The notes below the pieces were generated by a model, which worked only from the letters and a program-made list of their open reading frames with translations, was not told the origin of the DNA and made no database searches. Positions 1 to 11,347 of a stretch of DNA of 11,347 nt are shown here, one piece after another. Each line of letters begins with the position of its first letter. Positions within the stretch are counted from its first letter, which is position 1. The position numbers and the translations under genes are program-made. This DNA is from a virus: the UHGV virus genome UHGV-1347074; one strand, 5' to 3'.

Positions 1-57
1 ATATAACGAGCCCCTCCTAAGGGCTAGTTGCAGGTTCGATTCCTGCAGGGGACACCA
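1..57 (+). tRNA. argW: tRNA-Arg (anticodon CCU), 3' portion only; the 5' end lies upstream of the window
   Basis: Anticodon stem-loop agccc/CTCCTAA/gggct at 9-25 with anticodon CCT at 16-18; T-arm gcagg/TTCGATT/cctgc at 30-46; acceptor 3' strand plus discriminator and CCA ending at 57. Matches from memory the E. coli argW sequence, with one possible difference. Confidence 0.85.
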
Positions 58-217: not shown

Positions 218-1393
218 ATGCTGCTATCTGACATCCAAATAAAAAGAGCAAAACCGAAGGACAAACCCTATACGCTTAACGATGGTATGGGACTATCACT
301 CCTCATCGACACAGCGGGCAGCAAAGGCTGGCGTTTCCGCTATCGCTTTGCAGGTAAGCCAAAGATGATTTCCTTTGGTGTATATGGCGATGTGTCGTTG
401 GCACAGGCACGTACCAAACGTGATGAAGCGCGTTCGATGTTGGCCAAAGGGATCAACCCAAGTGAAGCCAGAAAGGCAGATAAGATTGCTTTGCAGTTCG
501 CACATGAGAACAGCTTTGAGTCTGTGGCCAGAGAATGGCACTCATCGAAAAAAGCCACCTGGTCAGAGGGGTATGCAAAAGAGGTTCTCAATTGTATGGA
601 AAAGGATATTTTTCCTTTTATCGGCCAGCGCCCAATTGAGCAGATTGAACCACTAGAGCTGCTAACCGTCCTGCAAAAAATAGAGAAAAGAGGTGCGCTA
701 GAGCAAACCAGCAAGATCCGCCGCCGTTGTGGTGAAGTGCTTCGTTATGCTGTTGCCACTGGCAGAGCAAAGTATAATTTTGCACCCGATTTAGCTATCG
801 CACTCAACAAACCTAAAACTCAACACTTCCCGTTCCTGACTGAAAGCGAGTTGCCCGAGTTCGTCAATGCTCTGGATAACTATCAGGGCAGTTTAGTCAC
901 CAAATACGCCACGCAGCTGTTGATGCTAACAGGCGTGCGAACAATTGAACTACGTGCAGCGGAATGGGCTGAGTTTGATTTAGATAATGCCTTATGGGAG
1001 ATCCCCAAAGAACGGATGAAGAAACGCCGCCCCCATCTGGTTCCGTTATCTACTCAGGCGATCAGCATCCTGAAAAAGCTGCAAGAAATAACTGGGAATT
1101 ACAGCCTCGTTTTCCCTGGGCGAAACGACGTCAGGAAACCAATGAGCGAAGCCAGTATCAACAAAGTGATAAAGCTGCTTGGCTATCATGGTCGGTTAAC
1201 GGGTCACGGCTTCAGGCATACCATGAGTACTATTTTGCATGAACATGGTTTTGAAAGCGCCTGGATTGAAATGCAGCTTGCGCATGTTGATAAGAACTCT
1301 ATTAGAGGGACTTATAATCATGCGCAGTATTTAGAACCGAGAAGAAAAATGCTAACGTTTTATAGCAACCTTATATATAAATCATATATATGA
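218..1393 (+). CDS. int: Tyrosine site-specific integrase, P4 family (about 392 aa from the first ATG)
   Basis: N-terminus from the ATG at 218 (MLLSDIQIKRAKPKDKPYTLNDGMGLSLLIDTAGSKGWRFRY...) matches the conserved P4-type integrase N-terminal domain. C-terminal catalytic region has HGFRH ... LAHVDKNSIRGTYNHAQYLEPRR (box II and tyrosine). The ORF-track start at 170 is a TTG and was not used. Confidence 0.9.
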   Translation: MLLSDIQIKRAKPKDKPYTLNDGMGLSLLIDTAGSKGWRFRYRFAGKPKMISFGVYGDVSLAQARTKRDEARSMLAKGINPSEARKADKIALQFAHENSFESVAREWHSSKKATWSEGYAKEVLNCMEKDIFPFIGQRPIEQIEPLELLTVLQKIEKRGALEQTSKIRRRCGEVLRYAVATGRAKYNFAPDLAIALNKPKTQHFPFLTESELPEFVNALDNYQGSLVTKYATQLLMLTGVRTIELRAAEWAEFDLDNALWEIPKERMKKRRPHLVPLSTQAISILKKLQEITGNYSLVFPGRNDVRKPMSEASINKVIKLLGYHGRLTGHGFRHTMSTILHEHGFESAWIEMQLAHVDKNSIRGTYNHAQYLEPRRKMLTFYSNLIYKSYI

Positions 1394-2443
1394 TCTTTTT
1401 ATATCCGTTAAAATAGTATCTACATCGGTAAATGTTATGTTTATACAATCAATTAACTCAAATACTTGCTCTTCAATAAGAATAAAATCATTTTTTGGTC
1501 CAGTACTAATTTTTATACCAAGATCCCCAACTTTCTCCAATAAACTAACCTGATGATTTGTGTAAATATATTTTCCTCCGGGCTCTGTTATCTCTCTATT
1601 TGCAGAAAAAACAACATCAGCTATCGCATCAACTTTTAGCTTATACGAAGAAGAAACAGTAACATCACCTTTCTTCGAAAGTGGGAATATTAAACTATAC
1701 CATTTATATATATTCACCTTGTCTGGAGAAATAAACTTTCGTTTGTTTATTTCTGCATTCATATAATCTCTAAACATATTTAGATGTGAAATATGATTTG
1801 TTAGATTACTATTTTTTACGCCAGCTTTATAAGTCAACAACGCTATTCCAATACCACCAACGGTGGTGATCAATGTAATCAACCATGCTATTGACTGAAG
1901 GATAATTGATATGCCATTAAATCTACCAAAAAAGTAAGAAACACACTTATCTGATAGGCAAAATTCTTTCACATACAGTTTTTCATTATAGATCGTAATG
2001 CATAGTATGATGAGACAAGAAATGATACCAAGCATAAAAATAGCAAGGATAGTAATAACCAAGACTTTTAGCTCTTTTTCTTTCCCAAAATCCCCCAAAG
2101 GTAATTTATTAACCAAAGAACTAGTAATTTTATAAATATAAATAATAGTAGTTTTAATGCTCTTTATTAAAGCTGAAGGAGAATTAAGAACAAAGCAATA
2201 CAATGTATTAGCTAAAAATTTAACTCGTATAAAAATAAAGCTTCCTCTAATCTTTACCTTCCTATATTTTCTTTTTAGTTCAAATACTATTTTTCTACCT
2301 TCATCTGTCCCCAGAAGAACTAATCCAATATGTGATACTATATCCCTTAAGCTAACTCCCACCCCAATAAACGCCTTATGAAAAGATGACAAACTGCGTT
2401 TGAGAGATTCATAATTAGATTTTATTTCAGCTAAGCTACCCAT
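1382..2443 (-). CDS. Predicted two-transmembrane-helix membrane protein, candidate retron effector (353 aa)
   Basis: Two long hydrophobic segments (VLVITILAIFMLGIISCLIILCITIY and ISIILQSIAWLITLITTVGGIGIALLTY) separated by a short loop. Its ATG shares one base with the RT stop (TGATG on the - strand), indicating translational coupling. Very AT-rich, like the RT gene. Confidence 0.75.
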   Translation of the reverse strand: MGSLAEIKSNYESLKRSLSSFHKAFIGVGVSLRDIVSHIGLVLLGTDEGRKIVFELKRKYRKVKIRGSFIFIRVKFLANTLYCFVLNSPSALIKSIKTTIIYIYKITSSLVNKLPLGDFGKEKELKVLVITILAIFMLGIISCLIILCITIYNEKLYVKEFCLSDKCVSYFFGRFNGISIILQSIAWLITLITTVGGIGIALLTYKAGVKNSNLTNHISHLNMFRDYMNAEINKRKFISPDKVNIYKWYSLIFPLSKKGDVTVSSSYKLKVDAIADVVFSANREITEPGGKYIYTNHQVSLLEKVGDLGIKISTGPKNDFILIEEQVFELIDCINITFTDVDTILTDIKRSYI

Positions 2444-3639
2444 CAGTATTTAACCTTTTGAAGACGATCTCTGAATCCTTTTTCAATCAATAAAAAACCG
2501 GGAGTTCTTCTTAAAATAATAAGATTATATAGTGTAAGATCATATTTTTTCTTGTAATAATCTTTTTTAGAGTTCCCACCTTTATAGGAGTTCTCTAAAA
2601 ATTTAATAGCCCTATCAATTTTAACAATATCTCTTTTTGCTGCCTTAGGCTGAATATCTTTTAGTCTTAATGATAGCACCTTATATTTATTGTGATTAAG
2701 CCTACCTAATTTGTTCACGCGCCCAACACATCTATTATACTCTATCCTATAGGCTACACTTGTTATTGAGTTATTTTTCTTTGCCAGTTTTTCTAAATTA
2801 TGCACAGACGCTCGAATACGTCCGACCTCATCAGAAGGTAAGCGTGGTTCATTAAATGAGATTCGTAACCCATGTACTTTTAATGATTCAGTTGATATAT
2901 TGTGTACTTGAGTTTTATCTTCATTTATAGGTAAATCTTTACCAGCAAGCATATCTTTAATATGATCTAAAATCTGATTCATATTGTAGTTAACTAATTT
3001 TGATGAAACTGTAATATCATCTACCAGTCTCGTATAGACTAATTTCTTCCTTTCTGCTCTATTTACAATGTCAGATTCAACATCAAAAAGACATAACGAT
3101 GCTATATAACTAGAGGTCAAAGCGCCCTGAACAATAGTGTCGTCATAACAGCATATATCAGTTAAGTACTCTAATGCTTCGCCTTTAAATTTTAAAACCT
3201 TAGAAAATATACTATATACTATATCTCTATGAATATTATCAAAAAAATTTTTGATATCTACTTTAAGTATTGTTTTTGCATTACAGTGCTTACGGGCACA
3301 AGCGATATAATGCCGCTCAATTCCTTTTTTTTTCTCATCTTTATTGGTTGGAACTGAGCCATAAATGTAATCTGGCCATAATATCAGCTCTTTAAAGATC
3401 CTATTGTTTATCCTTTTTTGAATACGCCTTATTAGCTGGTGTGGATCATAAACATCTCTAAGTTCACCATTTATTTTTTTTACTTGCTTTTTCTTGTATC
3501 TTTGGTGGGAAGGCATTGCAATAGCAGTTTTTAAATCTGCTAACGTAATATCCAAGCAAGAACTTAAAGATTGCAAAGATCTGAGAGATTGTGCACCAGG
3601 TTTTTTTATAGGATTACGGGCAACCATAATATCTTCCAT
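2443..3639 (-). CDS. Reverse transcriptase, retron-type (398 aa)
   Basis: RT motifs readable in the translation: ILKVDIKNFFDNI (motif A aspartate), ICCYDDTIVQGALTSSYIASL (motif B), YTRLVDDITVSS (motif C) and a downstream KVHGLRIS at the position of the retron VTG motif. Overall pattern resembles Ec86-type retron RTs from memory. Confidence 0.85.
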   Translation of the reverse strand: MEDIMVARNPIKKPGAQSLRSLQSLSSCLDITLADLKTAIAMPSHQRYKKKQVKKINGELRDVYDPHQLIRRIQKRINNRIFKELILWPDYIYGSVPTNKDEKKKGIERHYIACARKHCNAKTILKVDIKNFFDNIHRDIVYSIFSKVLKFKGEALEYLTDICCYDDTIVQGALTSSYIASLCLFDVESDIVNRAERKKLVYTRLVDDITVSSKLVNYNMNQILDHIKDMLAGKDLPINEDKTQVHNISTESLKVHGLRISFNEPRLPSDEVGRIRASVHNLEKLAKKNNSITSVAYRIEYNRCVGRVNKLGRLNHNKYKVLSLRLKDIQPKAAKRDIVKIDRAIKFLENSYKGGNSKKDYYKKKYDLTLYNLIILRRTPGFLLIEKGFRDRLQKVKY

Positions 3640-3960
3640 TCCATGAAATCAAAATTACATCCGGCCTCCCTCATACTCAAGTGGGCAAAAGAATAGGGTT
3701 GCTTTCGTCAAAAGCCCTTAGCAACTGCCCCTATTCTTTGACCGGACGCAATTGAGGACGGCTACAGCCCCATCGTTGCCGGCCAGGCTTTGTGGGGGTT
3801 CCGTTCCAGCCTATGCTACTGCATAGGCGCTCTCACTTTTCTGTTGCGAGAGCGGAAGCTAAGAAACTATAAACTTTGACTGCCACAGGCAAACGGAACG
3901 TTTGCGCGAAGCAGATATTACCATTGATGTTTCTAGTTTCAAGACTTAACTAGCATTTTT
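3640..3960 (-). ncRNA. Candidate retron non-coding RNA (msr/msd) upstream of the RT; boundaries approximate
   Basis: No ORF of 60 aa or more on either strand. Cluster of stable hairpins: 11-bp stem 3688-3698/3729-3739; 8-bp stem with tetraloop 3809-3816/3821-3828; 7-bp stem 3828-3834/3848-3854; 7-bp stem with GAA triloop 3889-3895/3899-3905. G+C is higher than in the adjacent RT gene. The a1/a2 inverted repeats could not be located. Confidence 0.35.
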
Positions 3961-4299
3961 CACATCACCTACCAAAATTGTAATGGACTGACCAAAAAGG
4001 CACTACACCGCACCCGCCTGCGGTTTTCATATCACTAAAATTTTTCAGTTGTGATTTTTTACAAACGATACCGCCAGCCCGCGCCCGTGCTGGGGATACA
4101 CTGCGAGGCAGGAACTGAAAAGAATGAAAAGAAATTCAGCTTTTTTCAGTTTTACTGTCCGTAGTATCTATGGCCTGAATACGCAACTCTATGATATTAA
4201 ATGGATAATTATTTTTAGGTGTGTGATTTTATGAAGTTTTGGAAACATGAAAAACATAACAAATTGAAAAATAATAATTTTATGTCCGTATAAACTGAA

Positions 4300-4348: not shown

Positions 4349-4621
4349 TTACCCATTCTTTTGCGCAGCCAGCAGCAACTTTAAAGCCTTTTCCCGTTCC
4401 TCGGGTGGAATTGCATCAATTAGCTCTTTAACCCTCCCCTGCCCGTTCAGCGCGCTTGGACTAACGGAATGGGAGAAAGCAACATTCATCACAAACGAGT
4501 GACCGCACTCCACATTAGAGCAATAGCAGTACACATCGTACAGTTGTGGGTGTTTCCTGTTTGTTTTACCTATCCGCGCTACTGCCTGACATGTGGGGCA
4601 GTACATTCTCATCATCTTCAT
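4349..4621 (-). CDS. Ogr/Delta-family zinc-finger late-gene transcriptional activator (single-domain, about 85-90 aa)
   Basis: C-x2-C-x22-C-x4-C spacing (MYCPTCQ ... YCSNVECGHSF) as in P2 Ogr / P4 Delta. The start is ambiguous among several in-frame ATGs (4621 to 4606); homology favours MYCPTCQ. Confidence 0.85.
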   Translation of the reverse strand: MKMMRMYCPTCQAVARIGKTNRKHPQLYDVYCYCSNVECGHSFVMNVAFSHSVSPSALNGQGRVKELIDAIPPEEREKALKLLLAAQKNG

Positions 4622-4903: not shown

Positions 4904-7591
4904 TTACTCAGGTTCGGCGCTTCCCAGTACCTGTGTATTGAACTGGTACACACGTTTAAGCCCTATTTCTGGCAGGCGAATGCTGTTTTGCGTCCGGCCA
5001 TCTTCACCGGGTTTCAGCCAGCCCGCGTCCACACACAACCTGGCCACCTTACGCGAATCAAATCCCTTACAGATCTCCTTCCAGCCTGACGGGAGAACGT
5101 AGAACGTCACAACCGGCTCTGTCACGTTGTCTCCTTTATCGACTTTTCTGAATCCCATCATTGAAACAGGCCGGTTCCTGTCGTCATTCCAGTCAGCAAA
5201 CCGACTGAACTGATTACGCGTCATGAAGTCCCGTACCTGTTCAAGTGCCGCTTTATCTTCCTGATTAGCTGTATGGCCCCGGTCAGCCATCCATGCAGCC
5301 AGACAACTTTGAGCGGCACGAAAGGCCTCTCCCTCCGGCCATCCTGTGATGCCCGCTTTTGTGGCCAGCTCCCCGGCCATAGCAACCAGAGCAAAACGGG
5401 TAACAGCCCGGCCAACCTGATTCCCGGCATTTTCCGGCGTCAGCCTCCGGGTGTACTCTTTCAATAAGGCTTTCGCCTGGCTGGTCAGTTCCGGCAGATC
5501 AGCGGTCAGGCAATGCAGCCAGTCGCGGAATGGTGCACCATGATAATGCGCTACATGCTGCTCAAGATGCTCAGCCAGGGTTTTCCCGCTACTGAAGCCA
5601 TGAAGTTCTTCAAACACGCCATACTTGCCCGAATCGCTTGGGATCTGGATCATTCTGACCTCAACCCCGGCATACGTACGTTCCCCGGCGCTTGCCGCAT
5701 GTTCTACCAGTGACAGTTCCCCGGTGGACAGAAACAACAGATTCCAGCGGTTGGTTTCCCTTACAGAACCATCTGTTCTGGCTCTGGCTTTGCCCTGCCC
5801 GTTAGCCAGCATATAAGCGATATTCCCCGCCTCCCTGCCGTCAACCTCCCGGATTTCATCCAGCATCAGCGTGGCATCATTGCGGCGGCTCGCCGTTCCT
5901 TCTAAGGCATTCCCCGTCGCCCGCCACGTATGCCAGAAATCTGTTCCACCACATACTGATGCAGCCACTTTCATCGTCGTGGTTTTGCCGTCCGTCGATT
6001 CCCCTTTGAGGTGATAACCTCCACCGCCGATACCAACCAGTTTCAGAAGGGGGGCAGCAAATGCCAGGCTCACCGCAAAGGCCAGACGGGCATTCTTTAT
6101 GCAGTAACGGCCAAGATTTTCACGCCATTCCTCTGATGTACCGCTGACACGAAAATCACGCCCCTGCACGCTCGATGTTTGTAAGATGACTGACTGGGCT
6201 TCGCGCCCTATCACTTCATCCTGGAGAACGTAAACCCCGCCGTGCCAGCCCGTTTTATTTACACAGGTAACTTTTCTGTCCGGTTTACACAGCGAGATAT
6301 ATTCCATCAGGAATGCTCTGGCCATACCGTTAATGTTGATGTAAGAAAGCCCGTTAACCAGCAGAACGCGGCGCAGTTCTTCCCCGCTGCCACCCAGCAT
6401 CTCCATCGGCATTGCCCATTTACGGCTGTTTCCGTTGGTATCTTCCCATTCCAGCAAACGCCCGTAATTACTCCCATCAGCATCACTGGTGATTGCCGTC
6501 ACCCGCAACGGGCTGCAAATTTTGATATTGCGTATCTCCGTATCACCATCAGACTTATTAACCAGCTTGTCGTACCACAAATATTCTTTTGTCAGCCGGA
6601 ACCCTTCTGGTAAACGGGTCTGCCCTTTGCCATGCAGCGTCATTTCTTCACGAAAGGCATCTCTCGCCCGTTCTTTCCCCACTTCCTGCCGATAGTCATC
6701 CCAGTCAGCCTTATGGCGTACCGGAGGGAGCGTTACCCAGCCATCCACCGCTTTGGCGGCTTTCTCTGCCTGAATACGCCCGGTGTTTTCTTTCCCGTCA
6801 GCCAGATCATTATCTCCGGCCAGAATGATCCGGGTTTCCGGCCAGCGTTTTCGGATCTGCTCCGTCACCTTCAGTAAATTGGTGGCAGCGACAGCCGCCA
6901 CGATCCATCCTTCAGTCAGCAGACTGACGGTAAGCGCCGTGGCAAAACCCTCAGTGATAATCACCTGTTCAGGTGTTTCAGCGGGTATATCGGTCAGGGC
7001 AATGAATGCGCCAGACAGCTGGCTACCGGGCAGCAGACTTTTATCCCCGTCAGGATTGATAAGCTGACCACCGGTAATATTCCCGGAAATATCCGTCAAC
7101 GGCAGCAGTAATGAACCGGAGGAAAATGTTATTCCGGCCAGATTCAAAGGTTGTGACAGCAAGGGAAGTGAATACCCGTGTAAGCCCTTGTTTGTCAGAT
7201 AGACCGGCTCACCATTGCAGGACTGCTGTCTGAGTCTGGTATATCGCTCCGCACCCGCTTCTTTTCCTGTGGCCTTTTTCCTAGCGGGCAAAGCGGGCTT
7301 CTCCTGTATTTCTGGTAATGCAAGCGCCTCAGATACCATCCCGGCGGCTTCTTTTATCTTTCTTCCTGTCACCAGACGAACCAGATCAAGACCATCGCCA
7401 TGACCGCACTGATTACAAAACCACGTCCCACGCCCCGCTTTATCGTCCAGTCGAAAGCGATCTTTGCCACCACAGGCAGGGCAAGCCCCATGATGTCCTG
7501 CGGACGGTACTTTGATACCTAATGCTGACAGGATATAAGGCCAGCGCCCAATCGCAGCCCCGGAAATAGTGGATACAGACAGTGTTTTCAC
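4904..7591 (-). CDS. Alpha-type DNA primase-helicase (895 aa): zinc-binding domain + TOPRIM primase + P-loop helicase
   Basis: N-terminal CPACGGKDRFR ... WFCNQCGHGDG zinc-binding motif; TOPRIM-like ITEGFATA ... ILAGDND; Walker A GESTDGKT. GTG start at 7591 preceded by AGGAGG (7-nt spacer) and overlapping the upstream gene's stop (GTGA). Confidence 0.9.
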   Translation of the reverse strand: MKTLSVSTISGAAIGRWPYILSALGIKVPSAGHHGACPACGGKDRFRLDDKAGRGTWFCNQCGHGDGLDLVRLVTGRKIKEAAGMVSEALALPEIQEKPALPARKKATGKEAGAERYTRLRQQSCNGEPVYLTNKGLHGYSLPLLSQPLNLAGITFSSGSLLLPLTDISGNITGGQLINPDGDKSLLPGSQLSGAFIALTDIPAETPEQVIITEGFATALTVSLLTEGWIVAAVAATNLLKVTEQIRKRWPETRIILAGDNDLADGKENTGRIQAEKAAKAVDGWVTLPPVRHKADWDDYRQEVGKERARDAFREEMTLHGKGQTRLPEGFRLTKEYLWYDKLVNKSDGDTEIRNIKICSPLRVTAITSDADGSNYGRLLEWEDTNGNSRKWAMPMEMLGGSGEELRRVLLVNGLSYININGMARAFLMEYISLCKPDRKVTCVNKTGWHGGVYVLQDEVIGREAQSVILQTSSVQGRDFRVSGTSEEWRENLGRYCIKNARLAFAVSLAFAAPLLKLVGIGGGGYHLKGESTDGKTTTMKVAASVCGGTDFWHTWRATGNALEGTASRRNDATLMLDEIREVDGREAGNIAYMLANGQGKARARTDGSVRETNRWNLLFLSTGELSLVEHAASAGERTYAGVEVRMIQIPSDSGKYGVFEELHGFSSGKTLAEHLEQHVAHYHGAPFRDWLHCLTADLPELTSQAKALLKEYTRRLTPENAGNQVGRAVTRFALVAMAGELATKAGITGWPEGEAFRAAQSCLAAWMADRGHTANQEDKAALEQVRDFMTRNQFSRFADWNDDRNRPVSMMGFRKVDKGDNVTEPVVTFYVLPSGWKEICKGFDSRKVARLCVDAGWLKPGEDGRTQNSIRLPEIGLKRVYQFNTQVLGSAEPE

Positions 7592-7998: not shown

Positions 7999-8227
7999 CG
8001 CGCATCTCTCCCTTAATTGTGCTGGTTTCCTTAACAACGCCATCAAGTTGTTCGGCAATACAGGCCACTAAAGCCGCAGCGCCTTCCGCTGAAACAGTTC
8101 TCGCTCCATTCACTGTGGGAACGGACAGGACCTCTGCAAGAAACTCACTGGCCAGTGCCGCCCGTAACAGACGACTCTCACCCAGTTCGCTCAATATGCA
8201 GCCTTGCTTAAAATTCATGGATTTCAT
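7991..8227 (-). CDS. Hypothetical small protein (78 aa)
   Basis: ATG at 8227 preceded by GGAGGTG with a 5-nt spacer; overlaps the upstream gene stop (ATGA) and the downstream gene start. No recognisable motif. Confidence 0.6.
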   Translation of the reverse strand: MKSMNFKQGCILSELGESRLLRAALASEFLAEVLSVPTVNGARTVSAEGAAALVACIAEQLDGVVKETSTIKGEMRDE

Positions 8228-8427
8228 GCAACCACCTCCCCGGCACTTTTCACAGGGATGTGGGCAGCAAAGCTCAGGATAAATTCAGTGGCAAGTTTAA
8301 GGCGTGCAGCATGCTCGCAGTCTGCGATTACACGCACAGGACGTGGACGGGCATCACGGTCTGTACGGCGAACAGCCAGAAAGACAAAGATAAATTCAGG
8401 GTGAGATAAAGCAGGGACTGTAGCCAT
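8224..8427 (-). CDS. Hypothetical small protein (67 aa), first ORF of the replication operon (positionally analogous to P4 kil, function unknown)
   Basis: ATG at 8427 preceded by GGAGG with an 8-nt spacer. The ORF track extends this frame to 8814 (196 aa), but that extension crosses a repeat- and hairpin-rich leader and looks non-coding. Confidence 0.5.
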   Translation of the reverse strand: MATVPALSHPEFIFVFLAVRRTDRDARPRPVRVIADCEHAARLKLATEFILSFAAHIPVKSAGEVVA

Positions 8428-8429
8428 AA

Positions 8430-8725
8430 TGGCAACCTCCGTTAGATAGCGGGTAACGCTACCACCGGAGTTCCTACGCTCATGGGTGGTAGCCCAGACG
8501 GGGGTAGGAATACCGGCTCTAACGGATACCGGCCAGCCCGAAAGCTGCCCCGCCTGGACTACCATAATTCTGATGATGTGGCGTAAAAAATAAAAACATG
8601 CAGTCAGCCACCACACCATAAATTTTAGGTGAGTCAAAGCTACGACACAAAAAAACACGCCTGGCGCGTGTTGTGTCGCCGTTAGATTACACGGGTTCCT
8701 ACGCCCGGCTGCCGATTTTGCGGCA
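8430..8725 (-). ncRNA. Candidate structured leader / immunity RNA region (P4 CI-RNA-like; Rfam C4-type), boundaries approximate
   Basis: Direct repeats CCGTTAGAT...GTTCCTACGC at 8439-8479 and 8679-8708. An internal segment (8499-8516, containing GTAGGAA) is largely complementary to both copies. Strong hairpins at 8458-8466/8485-8493 and 8643-8678. Confidence 0.3.
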
Positions 8726-8733
8726 ACCTTTAA

Positions 8734-8763
8734 ACTATATCCCGCGCATTCCTGGTGAGGCAA
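8734..8763 (-). promoter_or_regulatory. Candidate sigma70 promoter for the leader and replication operon
   Basis: On the - strand, TTGCCT (-35; + strand 8758-8763), an 18-bp spacer, then TATAGT (-10; + strand 8734-8739). Predicted start near 8726, just upstream of the first repeat copy. Confidence 0.3.
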
Positions 8764-8866
8764 GAAATTTATAACCGAAAACTGAACATTGCCTGGATTA
8801 ATTAACGCTGGCATGCTTAAGCCTCTGCTTAAAAATAGTTCTTCATTTTTCCTGATGCTGTAAACG

Positions 8867-8901: not shown

Positions 8902-9906
8902 TCAATCAGCAAACGTCAGGGCGCTCTCATCAACAGCCGCGTACAGTTCAGGTTCACCGAGTGCATAGCCTTCATTGCGCAGGTAGGAATGTACGTATTC
9001 ACTGTTTTCATCATCAAACTCAGCACGAAACCACCGTGTTATCGCCTGAGTGTAAATATGCAGATTATTCAGCGTCGTTACTGCCAGACGCTTACCCGGC
9101 ATAAACGGGGGAATAAACGCAAAGCGGCCAGCAACAGAACTTGTAGCCATCTGTGCAGCATTCACATCAGCCGGGCGGTCTGCGGCATTAAATAACTTCA
9201 GGCGTTGATGTGCTGCCAGCTCTGCCCCAACCAGAACAACCAGACGGGGATCTTCACGAAACTGCTCAGCAATAAGCTCAGTAATCAGATGGTTGGCCAT
9301 CGCATCAATATTTTTCCAGGTGCCAGTCTCTCCCAGCGTGACAGGCTCAGAGATGATTTGCTTTCCGTTCCCGTAGGCTTTCGCCAGTGCATGCCAGCCA
9401 ATATTGACATCCTCGCCTTTTTTATTGATTTCCGGGTTTGTAGTATTTGCAATCGACACACCATTGAAACCGACCCGCAGCATGTCCAGCGCATATGCCT
9501 GGGCAAAAAAGCTCTCAACCGTTTTCTCAAACCCATCCGGCACGCCGGTATGGTAAATATGAGACATATCGGAATAGCTGATCCGGGCGCAGGTATCCGT
9601 CTCTGTCAGAAAGAACTCCGTACCATTGATTGCCATTTTTTTGTGGAAACGGCCACCATCCACACGTCCGGTATGCAGTTCACTGGCACCAATATTGACT
9701 GCATTACCTGACACGGCGTTAACATCACGTAGCGTGATATTTTTAATAAGCCACCCGGATTCCAGAATTGACGTACGCAGTATATTTTCAGTGGGTTCGC
9801 TTAATGCAAAGCGTCTTTTTGATTCCTCCTGATAGTTAGTGCCAGTAACGAATTTATTATGATAACGACGTGCTGCGTCCGGCCTTTCAGTTTTGAAGGC
9901 ATACAT
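8902..9906 (-). CDS. P2 GpN-like major capsid protein homolog (334 aa)
   Basis: Several blocks align by eye with P2 gpN as recalled from memory: GFNGV, DV.(I/V)GW, EDPRLVVLVGAELAA (vs EDPDLVVIVGRQLLA) and TTLNNLHIY (vs TKLENLSIY). ATG at 9906 preceded by GGTGA. Confidence 0.7.
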   Translation of the reverse strand: MYAFKTERPDAARRYHNKFVTGTNYQEESKRRFALSEPTENILRTSILESGWLIKNITLRDVNAVSGNAVNIGASELHTGRVDGGRFHKKMAINGTEFFLTETDTCARISYSDMSHIYHTGVPDGFEKTVESFFAQAYALDMLRVGFNGVSIANTTNPEINKKGEDVNIGWHALAKAYGNGKQIISEPVTLGETGTWKNIDAMANHLITELIAEQFREDPRLVVLVGAELAAHQRLKLFNAADRPADVNAAQMATSSVAGRFAFIPPFMPGKRLAVTTLNNLHIYTQAITRWFRAEFDDENSEYVHSYLRNEGYALGEPELYAAVDESALTFAD

Positions 9907-9929: not shown

Positions 9930-10790
9930 TTAAGAAAAGATTTTATTTTTGTACTCAGTAACCCGATTGTATTTCATTACATGCTCAACATAATCCCGGT
10001 CACTTACGACTGAACGTAATACATAATTATCTGCTCGATAGTACTCCCTGTAAGCCATAGCTCTTGCCATTCCACCGTTATTTAATACATAACGATCAGT
10101 TGGAACGCTACAACGGCTAATAATTTCATTCACGGAATCAGACAAAGATTTGAGTGCGTCTGTAATAAATTTAATATCACGGACAACGTCACCGTCATTA
10201 AATACAGAAATAAAATCAGCAGGGATCTGGCCGGATTGAGGAAATATGTTCAGTAAACGCTTCTCGACTCCCTTACCAATGTAGTTCACTTCATCGGCCA
10301 GTACGCCCGGTAAAAGCTTGATCGTGCTCAGTCGGCTATGTTGCTCATTCAGCCGGGAAACAGCCAGATGGTAACACCGTTCAGCATCCGCTCGTTCAGC
10401 ATGCCCCGTTTTATTCGTTTTGGCTTCAGCAATGCTACTGACGCCGTTTTTTGAGAATGTGCTTTTCCATGCAACTTCCGCATTTGTCACTTCACGCTGC
10501 CGGAAAGATAACTCTTCCTCTTCCTGACGACACAACTGGGCATAACGGCTTAGGAGCAGGTTGATCTCATTCGCCACAGCTTCCGTATCAGGTACTGTTA
10601 ACCCCGTAAGTGAATACAGCTTTTCACCTTTAGCACGCAGCTTATTCAGTGAATAGATTTCGATAATACGCACAATACAGGCTGTGTCGCTATGAGTTTC
10701 TTTAAATGGTCTTACTTTGTAACTATCTAACACCGACACATGTTCGTTCTTAATTGATGCCAATTTTTTCTTAAAAACATTGTCAACCAT
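9930..10790 (-). CDS. Hypothetical protein (286 aa), immediately upstream of and co-oriented with the capsid homolog
   Basis: ATG at 10790 preceded by GAGGTG; 23-nt gap to the capsid gene. Lower G+C than the flanking capsid and primase genes. No motif recognised; not similar by eye to P2 gpO. Confidence 0.8.
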   Translation of the reverse strand: MVDNVFKKKLASIKNEHVSVLDSYKVRPFKETHSDTACIVRIIEIYSLNKLRAKGEKLYSLTGLTVPDTEAVANEINLLLSRYAQLCRQEEEELSFRQREVTNAEVAWKSTFSKNGVSSIAEAKTNKTGHAERADAERCYHLAVSRLNEQHSRLSTIKLLPGVLADEVNYIGKGVEKRLLNIFPQSGQIPADFISVFNDGDVVRDIKFITDALKSLSDSVNEIISRCSVPTDRYVLNNGGMARAMAYREYYRADNYVLRSVVSDRDYVEHVMKYNRVTEYKNKIFS

Positions 10791-11325: not shown

Positions 11326-11347
11326 GCCCGGGAGACAGAATGTGGAG

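What the first reader, a model, noticed from the sequence alone, without database searches (positions are those of the whole stretch)
1340..1400. Integrase 3' end is encoded inside the AT-rich cassette and overlaps the effector gene convergently
Base composition switches sharply to AT-rich around 1350. The last 12 codons of int (TFYSNLIYKSYI) lie in cassette-type DNA, and the int stop (1393) and the effector stop (1382) overlap by 12 bp on opposite strands. This suggests cassette exchange right at the int 3' end, so the integrase tail is partly defined by the cargo, and convergent transcription may link int expression to the defence cassette.
Basis: seen in the sequence. Interest (0 to 1): 0.45.

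Follow-up and report, generated by a model that had tools for sequence, protein, structure and literature searches.

The report
Integrase tail swaps with defence cargo
In this Klebsiella phage-satellite island, the swappable anti-phage "cargo slot" begins inside the integrase gene, so the last 20 amino acids of the integrase travel with the cargo; this refines a known defence hotspot and is not a new kind of system.

Summary
That overlap, TCATATATATGA, is a perfect palindrome, so both proteins end in SYI.

The window is a P4-like satellite at tRNA-Arg(CCU)/argW of Klebsiella pneumoniae. Its cargo is a type IV retron.

Related argW elements have integrases 94-97% identical and carry other cargos: sce7725/7726, PARIS-like, an Sll1717 ATPase and a hypothetical. 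They lose DNA homology at 1331-1334, right after the YNHAQY codons, and regain it at about 3986. The exchangeable cassette therefore holds the last 20 int codons, not 12.

Across 67 loci, tail identity follows cargo, not integrase core. Tails are about 41% identical with unrelated cargo even when cores are ≥90% identical. They are 68-79% identical with related cargo, whatever the core. Every tail keeps R..M[LM]..Y.

Some exchanged tracts reach 360-550 nt into int, and no terminal repeats are shared. This points to homologous recombination between conserved flanks.

The effector C-terminus KR[ASL]Y[ITV] is conserved. The last two Int residues (YI) exist only because int reads into the effector's conserved end; relatives end at …KS.

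Regulatory coupling by convergent transcription was not tested.

The parts
1..57 (+). 3' part of tRNA-Arg (anticodon CCU, argW), the attachment site end of the island
   Evidence: Rfam tRNA hit at 1-54. 5368 E. coli genomes match 1-58 at their annotated tRNA-Arg. The neighbours yfdC, mlaA and fadL appear in every locus carrying the identical effector.
218..1393 (+). P4-type tyrosine integrase, 391 aa (ATG at 218; the mechanical ORF starts at TTG 170)
   Evidence: Pfam Arm-DNA-bind_3, Phage_int_M and Phage_integrase. It has the same length and start as the annotated E. coli orthologues. R241, H330, R333, H356 and Y366 are invariant in 26 relatives.
1313..1330 (+). Codons for YNHAQY (Int residues 366-371, with the putative catalytic Tyr366). 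This is the last conserved DNA before the variable cassette and the left homology arm.
   Evidence: LAHVDKNSIRG[TI]YNHA[QL]Y is essentially invariant in 120 family representatives. Identity to relatives carrying other cargo falls from 0.9-1.0 to about 0.4 immediately after it. In 16 of 22 informative pairs the change point lies between -12 and +17 nt of this point.
1331..1390 (+). Cargo-linked Int C-terminal tail, residues 372-391 (LEPRRKMLTFYSNLIYKSYI)
   Evidence: It has no DNA homology to tails of elements with other cargo. GC is 0.27 and GC3 0.26, like the cargo. It is homologous to tails found next to Ec48-type retrons in other genera. It keeps the invariant R375, M378 and Y382. It is predicted helical with pLDDT 73-80, in an otherwise poor model.
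1382..1393 (.). 12-bp overlap of the two convergent ORF ends, the perfect palindrome TCATATATATGA
   Evidence: On the - strand it encodes the conserved effector end S-Y-I-stop. On the + strand it gives Int its last residues S-Y-I-stop. Relatives have a spacer of +7 to +33 nt or a 4-nt TTAA stop overlap instead.
1382..2443 (-). Retron Ec48-family membrane effector (2TM), 353 aa
   Evidence: PADLOC 2TM_IV, E=2.4e-87. Pfam PF28197 Retron_Ec48_antiviral in the precomputed table. It is 100% identical to a Klebsiella pneumoniae protein.
2443..3639 (-). Retron reverse transcriptase, type IV, 398 aa
   Evidence: PADLOC RT_IV, E=4e-182. Pfam RVT_1.
3660..3915 (-). Probable retron non-coding RNA (msr-msd), including an 11-bp perfect stem at 3688-3698/3729-3739
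   Evidence: This block is 90-97% identical to L011 where the neighbouring coding DNA is about 70-80% identical. Inverted repeats I4-I6 lie here. The sequence was read. No Rfam family matched, so the assignment is inferred.
3915..3942 (-). Promoter-like site (TTGAAA-16-TAATAT with a TG) inside the cassette, upstream of the ncRNA
   Evidence: Consensus scan only. The count of such sites in the region is no higher than in shuffles.
1331..3985 (.). The exchangeable cassette (about 2.65 kb): Int tail, effector, RT, ncRNA and promoter
   Evidence: The right limit comes from homology to 475 E. coli genomes resuming at window 3986-3993. In 15 argW-group loci the conserved right flank starts within 15 nt of the same point, and cassettes are 1.85-3.3 kb.
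3998..4024 (.). Terminator-like GC hairpin, scored on both strands, at the start of the conserved right flank
   Evidence: It lies in the block conserved across cargo types.
4349..4621 (-). Ogr/Delta-like zinc-finger activator, the first conserved satellite gene to the right of the cassette
   Evidence: Pfam Ogr_Delta. It is annotated the same way in E. coli relatives.

Best explanation
The window is the left end of a P4-like phage satellite integrated at tRNA-Arg(CCU)/argW of Klebsiella pneumoniae. Its known defence hotspot is here filled by a type IV (Ec48-family) retron.

The hotspot is a slot bounded by two conserved homology arms. On the left the arm is the integrase codons up to the catalytic-tyrosine box YNHAQY, ending at nt 1330. 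On the right it is the terminator-bearing non-coding block downstream of ogr/delta, starting at about nt 3986. Cargo is exchanged between related satellites by homologous recombination in these arms.

The last stretch of conserved DNA on the left lies 20 codons before the int stop. Every imported cassette therefore brings its own version of the integrase C-terminal helix. The tail is a true integrase tail that keeps R375, M378 and Y382, but it is inherited with the cargo and not with the integrase core.

Strong compaction, inferred to come from the small-capsid size limit of P4-like satellites, has removed intergenic DNA, so cargo ends abut or overlap int. In this lineage a small deletion of about 13 nt relative to L011 removed the spacer and the old int stop. 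Int now reads two codons (YI) further, into the reverse complement of the effector's conserved end, and this produces the 12-bp palindromic overlap.

Shown here: the boundaries, the tail-cargo co-inheritance, the conserved motif and the variability of the junction. Inferred: homologous recombination as the mechanism, the deletion event, the compaction pressure and a still-functional integrase.
For: - Element type: int, Ogr/Delta, a DUF927/Toprim primase, Ash and AlpA, plus C4 antisense RNA and isrK.
- Cargo: RT_IV and 2TM_IV.
- Source: Klebsiella pneumoniae, always in the argW context.
- Different cargo beside 94-97% identical Int, each with a different tail.
- Sharp identity drop at the end of the YNHAQY codons. 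Change points cluster there, median 0, with 16 of 22 within -12 to +17 nt.
- The right boundary is fixed within 15 nt in 15 loci.
- Tail tracks cargo. With core ≥90% and unrelated cargo, tails are 41% identical (n=184). With related cargo they are 68-79% identical, even when the core is <75%.
- L048/L053: cargo 98%, tail 100%, core 87%.
- Exchanged tracts extend 360-550 nt into int in L048/L053 and L054/L060, as expected for homologous crossovers.
- Tail GC matches cargo GC in most loci.
- Ec48-retron loci in other genera carry a related tail family, FYS..I[YL]KS(N).
- The effector C-terminus KR[ASL]Y[ITV] is conserved in nearly all of 42 homologues.
- L011 has AAATCA[TGATCAAGCATCA]TATATATG where the window has AAATCATATATATG.
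- No shared terminal repeats at cassette ends in relatives.
Against: - The groups with related cargo are small (4, 6 and 4 pairs), and the loci are not phylogenetically independent.
- Homologous recombination is inferred from patterns. No recombination event was observed.
- If crossovers can occur anywhere in int, the strong clustering at the very last conserved codons needs an extra assumption: selection for an unchanged core, or frequent exchange with distant donors that share only this box.
- Integrase activity of the short-tailed proteins was not tested. Several retron-bearing relatives have decayed int genes.
- The deletion scenario rests on comparison with relatives whose effectors are only 54-64% identical.
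- The P2/P4 cos 19-mer was not found, and no psu or sid was detected, so the size-limit argument is borrowed from canonical P4.
Confidence: 0.75

Rival explanations
1. There is no exchange at the int end. The last 20 codons are simply weakly constrained and have drifted fast and AT-ward in place, so tails differ between lineages for that reason alone.
For: Only three tail positions are invariant. Tail lengths vary from 16 to 27 aa in the subfamily. The junction is indel-prone.
Against: - Pairs with 94-100% identical DNA up to nt 1330 fall to random-level identity within a few bases. Drift cannot produce this while the adjacent core stays nearly identical.
- Tails are 100% or 82% identical between loci whose cores are only 87% or 69% identical but whose cargo is shared.
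- Tail identity does not rise with core identity when the cargo is unrelated: 41% at ≥90% core and 41% at 75-90% core.
Confidence: 0.07
2. Cargo insertion truncated the integrase. The native long C-terminus (…QWYADYIDSL…) was cut off and replaced by read-through into foreign DNA, leaving a crippled integrase and an immobilised island.
For: More distant P4/IntA-type relatives have longer, conserved tails with core-like GC and wide spacing to the next gene (L067-L092). Several Ec48-retron loci at argW hold only int fragments and no satellite genes. L009 has a stop and a frameshift in its tail.
Against: - The window's int is a full-length ORF with all catalytic residues, and its tail keeps the invariant R375, M378 and Y382.
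- The same motif is kept in every one of about 54 short-tail loci from many genera. That indicates purifying selection on a working helix, not random read-through.
- The tail is homologous to other integrase tails.
Confidence: 0.1
3. Cassettes are inserted by a site-specific, integron-like or transposon-like mechanism at a fixed site just after the Tyr-box codons.
For: Left and right boundaries coincide within a few nucleotides in many loci. The window has an 11-nt inverted repeat GAAAAATGCTA near both cassette ends, at 1344-1354 and 3951-3961; a direct match of that length arose in only 2 of 300 shuffles, and the inverted case was not shuffled separately.
Against: - The 11-mer is absent from the closest retron-bearing relatives, and no comparable terminal repeat occurs in 14 other cassettes.
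- 6 of 22 pairs have change points away from the box, four of them 170-270 nt inside int, and L048/L053 and L054/L060 show tracts of 360-550 nt.
- No extra recombinase or transposase lies in the cassette.
- Cargo occurs in both orientations.
Confidence: 0.04
4. The tail-to-tail overlap is a selected regulatory device. Read-through of the retron operon produces antisense RNA over int, or the reverse, tying island mobility to expression of the defence system.
For: No terminator-like site lies between the genes. The palindrome forms only a weak hairpin, -5 to -7 kcal/mol with z about -1.6, so read-through is likely. Convergent overlaps occur in 11 of 24 convergent loci.
Against: - 30 of 54 related loci have co-directional cargo.
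- Close retron-bearing relatives have spacers of +7 to +33 nt or only a 4-nt overlap, so neither the overlap nor its length is conserved.
- No expression data exist here.
Confidence: 0.1

Closest known systems
Defence hotspot of P4-like satellites, between int and the psu-delta-sid operon (Rousset et al. 2022, PMC9122126; NAR 2026, PMC13586616)
   Same: A satellite with a P4-type int at a tRNA gene, an alpha-like primase, ogr/delta, AlpA, Ash and CI/C4 RNA. One slot next to int holds different anti-phage systems in otherwise similar elements, in either orientation. Retrons and PARIS are among the cargos.
   Different: Both papers place the hotspot between the genes. In text searches of these two papers I found no statement that the variable DNA begins inside int or that the Int C-terminus is inherited with the cargo. 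This element also lacks detectable psu and sid and the P2/P4 cos 19-mer, and it carries a P2-family major head protein homologue.
Retron Ec48 (type IV retron: RT plus 2TM effector; Millman et al. 2020, cited in PMC9122126) and retronphage φR73 (Inouye et al. 1991, cited in PMC9122126; its P4-like character is from my own knowledge)
   Same: RT_IV and the Ec48-family membrane effector match with very strong HMM scores. A conserved structured non-coding block lies upstream of the RT. A retron carried as cargo of a P4-like element has a precedent.
   Different: The effector is 353 aa, with an N-terminal extension beyond the 2TM_IV profile (the match covers residues 121-353). It is only about 32% identical to the E. 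coli Ec48-type proteins (P0161). msDNA production and defence were not tested.
C-terminal segment after the catalytic tyrosine in tyrosine recombinases (λ Int tail, Cre helix N, XerD C-terminus), from established structural knowledge
   Same: A short helix or strand following the catalytic Tyr, with a few conserved contact residues. Here the tail starts 6 residues after Tyr366, is predicted helical and keeps R, M and Y.
   Different: No solved structure covers the catalytic domain of this family, only the arm-binding and core-binding domains, so the role of the tail is inferred. I know of no report that this segment is horizontally exchanged together with neighbouring cargo in those model systems.

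Membership tests
P4-like phage satellite | Core genes: int, alpha primase/helicase, delta (ogr-like), AlpA and ash/epsilon | tested here: met
   Pfam: integrase domains, Zn_Ribbon_Prim + Toprim_3 + DUF927, Ogr_Delta, Phage_AlpA and Phage_ASH.
P4-like phage satellite | CI/C4-type immunity RNA | tested here: met
   Rfam C4 antisense RNA at 81 bits (gathering score 45) at 8482-8569(-), and isrK at 8650-8727(-).
P4-like phage satellite | psu and sid capsid-hijacking genes | tested here: not met
   No Psu or Sid family hit among the ten Pfam-scanned ORFs. A P2-family major head protein homologue (8902-9906) and an unassigned 286-aa ORF sit in that position. The window ends at 11347, so genes beyond it were not seen.
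P4-like phage satellite | P2/P4 cos site next to the hotspot | tested here: not met
   The 19-mer GGCGAGGCGGGGAAAGCAC, recalled from memory, gives no match with up to 3 mismatches. A divergent cos site cannot be excluded.
P4-satellite defence hotspot | Related elements carry different systems at the same slot next to int | tested here: met
   sce7725/7726, an Sll1717 ATPase, a 482-aa hypothetical and AAA+DUF4435 (PARIS-like) sit beside 94-97% identical Int at argW. There are 15 cassettes of 1.85-3.3 kb between the same flanks.
Type IV (Ec48-family) retron | Retron-clade reverse transcriptase of type IV | tested here: met
   PADLOC RT_IV E=4.1e-182 over 15-398, far above the other RT types. Pfam RVT_1.
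Type IV (Ec48-family) retron | Adjacent two-transmembrane effector | tested here: met
   PADLOC 2TM_IV E=2.4e-87. PF28197 Retron_Ec48_antiviral. The effector start overlaps the RT stop by 1 nt.
Type IV (Ec48-family) retron | msr-msd non-coding RNA upstream of the RT, producing msDNA | tested here: inconclusive
   A conserved block (90-97% to L011) with inverted repeats lies at 3660-3915. No Rfam model matched. msDNA cannot be tested here.
P4-type tyrosine integrase | Arm-binding, core-binding and catalytic domains with the R-H-R-H-Y catalytic residues | tested here: met
   Three Pfam domains. R241, H330, R333, H356 and Y366 are invariant in the alignment. Assigning these residues as catalytic is by analogy.
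P4-type tyrosine integrase | Catalyses integration and excision at argW | not testable with these tools
   Only the location next to tRNA-Arg supports it.
Integron-like or transposon-like cassette system | Conserved recombination sites or terminal repeats at cassette ends | tested here: not met
   The only repeat is a window-specific 11-mer. None is shared by relatives or by other cassettes.

The most novel reading that the evidence does not exclude
The integrase C-terminal helix is a module that is rewritten every time the satellite swaps its defence cargo. In other tyrosine recombinases this segment controls protomer contacts and the timing of cleavage. Cargo identity could then tune integrase activity, through the tail sequence and through read-through antisense transcription, and so tune how readily the satellite excises. 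That would be a cargo-dependent control of satellite mobility.
Probability: 0.12. Interest if true: 0.55.

Novelty: new member of a known kind. Interest (0 to 1): 0.33.

Why it matters
It fixes, to the nucleotide, where the P4-satellite defence hotspot begins and ends in this integrase clade: Int codon 372 on the left and the terminator downstream of ogr on the right. That gives a simple rule for extracting cargo from genomes. It also warns that integrase C-termini in these elements are mosaic, which matters for integrase phylogenies, for att-site prediction and for clustering integrases at 90% identity.

It offers a testable explanation, homologous recombination in two short conserved arms, for how cargo moves between satellites. 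The NAR 2026 survey (PMC13586616) lists several possible exchange mechanisms, homologous recombination among them, without settling on one. If the tails differ in activity, cargo exchange would have a side effect on satellite mobility.

Tried and rejected
- The first genome-contig scan, with the effector protein, found nothing.
- Megablast of the retron cassette against complete E. coli genomes found no copy of the cargo. It only defined the right flank.
- Searching E. coli for the PARIS-like and sce7725 junctions beside other integrases gave only clonal copies, mostly ST131, so it could not test tail-cargo linkage. The 80-species locus set did.
- Rfam has no model that matched the retron ncRNA.
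- The AlphaFold model of Int was poor (mean pLDDT 58). I did not run fold searches on it and used only the helical tail prediction, as weak evidence.
- PDB sequence search found no structure of the catalytic domain or tail of this family.
- The P2/P4 cos 19-mer gave no match, and no second copy of the tRNA 3' end (attR) lies in the window.
- The 11-nt inverted repeat near both cassette ends looked like a terminal repeat. It is absent from relatives and was judged to be chance.
- The palindrome as a bidirectional terminator was rejected. The hairpins are weak and not significant, and the scan found no terminator there.
Full report
**What is at the coordinates**

The window opens with the 3' part of tRNA-Arg(CCU), argW (1-57). 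A P4-type tyrosine integrase follows at 218-1393 on the + strand, 391 aa, with arm-binding, core-binding and catalytic domains.

Two AT-rich genes converge on it from the - strand. One is a 353-aa Ec48-family membrane effector at 1382-2443 (PADLOC 2TM_IV, E=2.4e-87). The other is a type IV retron reverse transcriptase at 2443-3639 (RT_IV, E=4e-182).

The int stop TGA is at 1391-1393, and the effector stop occupies 1382-1384 on the other strand. The overlap TCATATATATGA is its own reverse complement, so both proteins end in S-Y-I.

GC falls from 0.48 in the int core to 0.30 beyond it. Composition alone places the change at 1283-1290, with support from 1217 to 1357, so it is not a sharp step at 1350.

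**Context**

The rest of the window is the core of a P4-like satellite:
- Ogr/Delta at 4349-4621;
- a Zn-ribbon/Toprim/DUF927 primase at 4904-7591;
- Ash and AlpA;
- the P4-type C4 antisense RNA and isrK.

The identical effector occurs in Klebsiella pneumoniae and, wherever it was looked up, in the same argW-yfdC-mlaA-fadL context.

In complete E. coli genomes, 439 carry an int that is mostly 95-96% identical in DNA at argW. None carries this retron. Four examples were fetched. They hold sce7725/sce7726, an Sll1717-type ATPase, a 482-aa hypothetical protein and an AAA+DUF4435 (PARIS-like) pair between int and ogr/delta.

Their Int proteins are 94-97% identical to the window's up to YNHAQY(L/I). 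After that, each has a different tail and a different junction. DNA identity drops from 0.9-1.0 to about 0.4 at window 1331-1334 and returns at 3986-3993.

The variable cassette is 1331-3985 and includes the last 20 int codons, not the last 12.

**Generality**

A profile of 26 Int relatives recovered 80 loci from different species. In 120 family representatives the segment LAHVDKNSIRG[TI]YNHA[QL]Y is almost invariant. What follows is hypervariable but always fits [LI]xxRxxM[LMI]xxY[SA]xx[ILV] plus 2-12 residues. R375, M378 and Y382 are invariant in the alignment.

Findings in the 54 short-tail loci:
- The tail has cargo-like GC (0.25-0.38, against 0.42-0.49 in the core).
- The first cargo ORF overlaps the int end in 29 loci and lies within 35 nt in 17 more.
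- The cargo is convergent in 24 loci and co-directional in 30.

More distant P4/IntA-type integrases (L067-L092) have longer, conserved tails (…QWYADYIDSL…), core-like GC and wide spacing. The cargo-embedded tail is thus a property of this clade.

**Does the tail travel with the cargo?**

Tail identity by Int-core identity and cargo relatedness:

| Int core identity | Cargo | Pairs | Tail identity |
|---|---|---|---|
| ≥90% | unrelated | 184 | 41% |
| 75-90% | unrelated | 270 | 41% |
| <75% | unrelated | 1721 | 35.5% |
| ≥90% | ≥70% identical | 4 | 79% |
| 75-90% | ≥50% identical | 6 | 67% |
| <75% | ≥70% identical | 4 | 68% |

With unrelated cargo, tail identity stays at the same baseline whatever the core identity.

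Individual pairs show the same thing:
- L048/L053: cargo 98%, tail 100%, core 87%.
- L054/L060: cargo 88%, tail 82%, core 69%.
- L032/L034: core 95%, cargo 64%, tail 39%.

The groups with related cargo are small and not phylogenetically independent, but the effect is large and consistent.

Ec48-type retrons at argW in other genera sit beside tails of one recognisable family: …FYSNLIYKSYI, …YYNNLIYTLA, …FYGDYIYKS, …FYSYHILKSN and …EYSNYILSN.

**Mechanism**

Three observations bear on it:
- Change points between nearly identical cores with unrelated cargo have a median of 0, and 16 of 22 lie within -12 to +17 nt of the end of the YNHAQY codons. Four lie 170-270 nt inside int. The near-identical tracts of L048/L053 and L054/L060 begin about 360 and 550 nt inside int.
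- The right edge coincides within 15 nt in 15 loci, just inside a terminator-like hairpin at 3998-4024.
- No terminal repeats are shared by cassettes. The window's 11-nt inverted repeat at 1344-1354/3951-3961 is absent from its closest relatives. No recombinase lies in the cassette.

This pattern fits homologous recombination in two conserved arms. The Tyr-box codons are the last usable homology on the left. It does not fit a site-specific insertion.

**Origin of the 12-bp overlap**

The effector C-terminus KR[ASL]Y[ITV]-stop is conserved in nearly all of 42 homologues. The overlap is therefore genuine effector coding sequence.

Relatives show various junctions:
- L011 has int ending …YIYKS-TGA, a 7-nt gap and then the effector stop.
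- L097 and L100 have 4-nt TTAA stop overlaps.
- L095 has a gap of about 7 nt, and L009 a gap of 33 nt.

L011 reads AAATCA[TGATCAAGCATCA]TATATATG where the window reads AAATCATATATATG. This is consistent with a 13-nt deletion that removed the spacer and the old stop and extended Int by Y-I. That event is inferred, not shown.

**Function of the tail and the regulatory idea**

No solved structure covers this family's catalytic domain. The AlphaFold model is poor overall (mean pLDDT 58) but predicts a helix across 362-390, with pLDDT 73-80 in the tail. From general knowledge of tyrosine recombinases, the segment after the catalytic Tyr mediates protomer contacts. That would explain the conserved R, M and Y.

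No terminator-like site separates int and the effector, and the palindrome folds weakly. Mutual read-through is therefore plausible. However, orientation and overlap are not conserved among relatives, so a selected regulatory role is unsupported.

**Comparison with the literature**

Rousset et al. 2022 (PMC9122126) and the 2026 NAR survey (PMC13586616) describe this hotspot as lying between int and psu, with cargo in either orientation and including retrons and PARIS. In text searches of these two papers I found no statement that the variable DNA starts inside int or that the Int C-terminus is inherited with the cargo.

The finding is a correct and slightly under-stated observation about a known hotspot, filled here by a known retron type. 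The refinement is modest but appears not to have been spelled out before.

**Verdict**

It is a new member of a known kind, of moderate-to-low interest.

Noticed in passing
window 8902-9906 (-) and 9930-10790 (-): The satellite encodes a P2-family major head protein homologue (Pfam Phage_cap_P2 E=9e-67; PHROG 70 E=7e-85) and an unassigned 286-aa ORF where canonical P4 has sid and psu. No psu or sid hit was found. This may be a capsid-encoding variant of P4-like satellites.
   Followed up: partly
window 8224-8814 (-), 8482-8569 (-), 8650-8727 (-): The mechanical 196-aa ORF that hits Phage_ASH contains both the C4 antisense RNA and the isrK RNA matches. The real Ash coding region is probably shorter than this ORF.
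   Followed up: no
L093-L100 (Cedecea, Serratia, Providencia and metagenomes): Ec48-type retrons sit at the same argW/yfdC locus with only int fragments, or no int, and no satellite core genes. They look like decayed satellites that kept their defence cargo.
   Followed up: partly
L006 4966-6001 (K. pneumoniae CP058544.1): In one genome carrying the identical effector, the RT is called as two ORFs (88 and 225 aa) instead of 394 aa. The retron RT may be disrupted there while the effector stays intact.
   Followed up: no
L029-L065 (Int clade about 65% identical to the window's): Here the cargo is mostly co-directional with int, and its start codon overlaps the int stop by 4 or 11 nt. This suggests co-transcription or translational coupling of cargo with int.
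   Followed up: no
L004 1-5629 (E. coli 15A23CPO013): A second P4-like gene set (TOPRIM/DUF927, two psu genes, ogr/delta and two hypotheticals) lies directly upstream of the argW-type int. The two satellites appear to be in tandem.
   Followed up: no
window 1344-1354 (+) and 3951-3961 (-): An 11-nt inverted repeat GAAAAATGCTA lies near both cassette ends. A direct match of that length arose in 2 of 300 shuffles; the inverted case was not shuffled separately. It is absent from relatives and was judged to be chance.
   Followed up: yes
L028, L042, L046, L067, L087: Close Int relatives occur on short contigs of MAGs labelled Lachnospiraceae, Streptococcus, Clostridiales, Wohlfahrtiimonas and Ignatzschineria. 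The first three are probably mis-binned Enterobacterales contigs.
   Followed up: no
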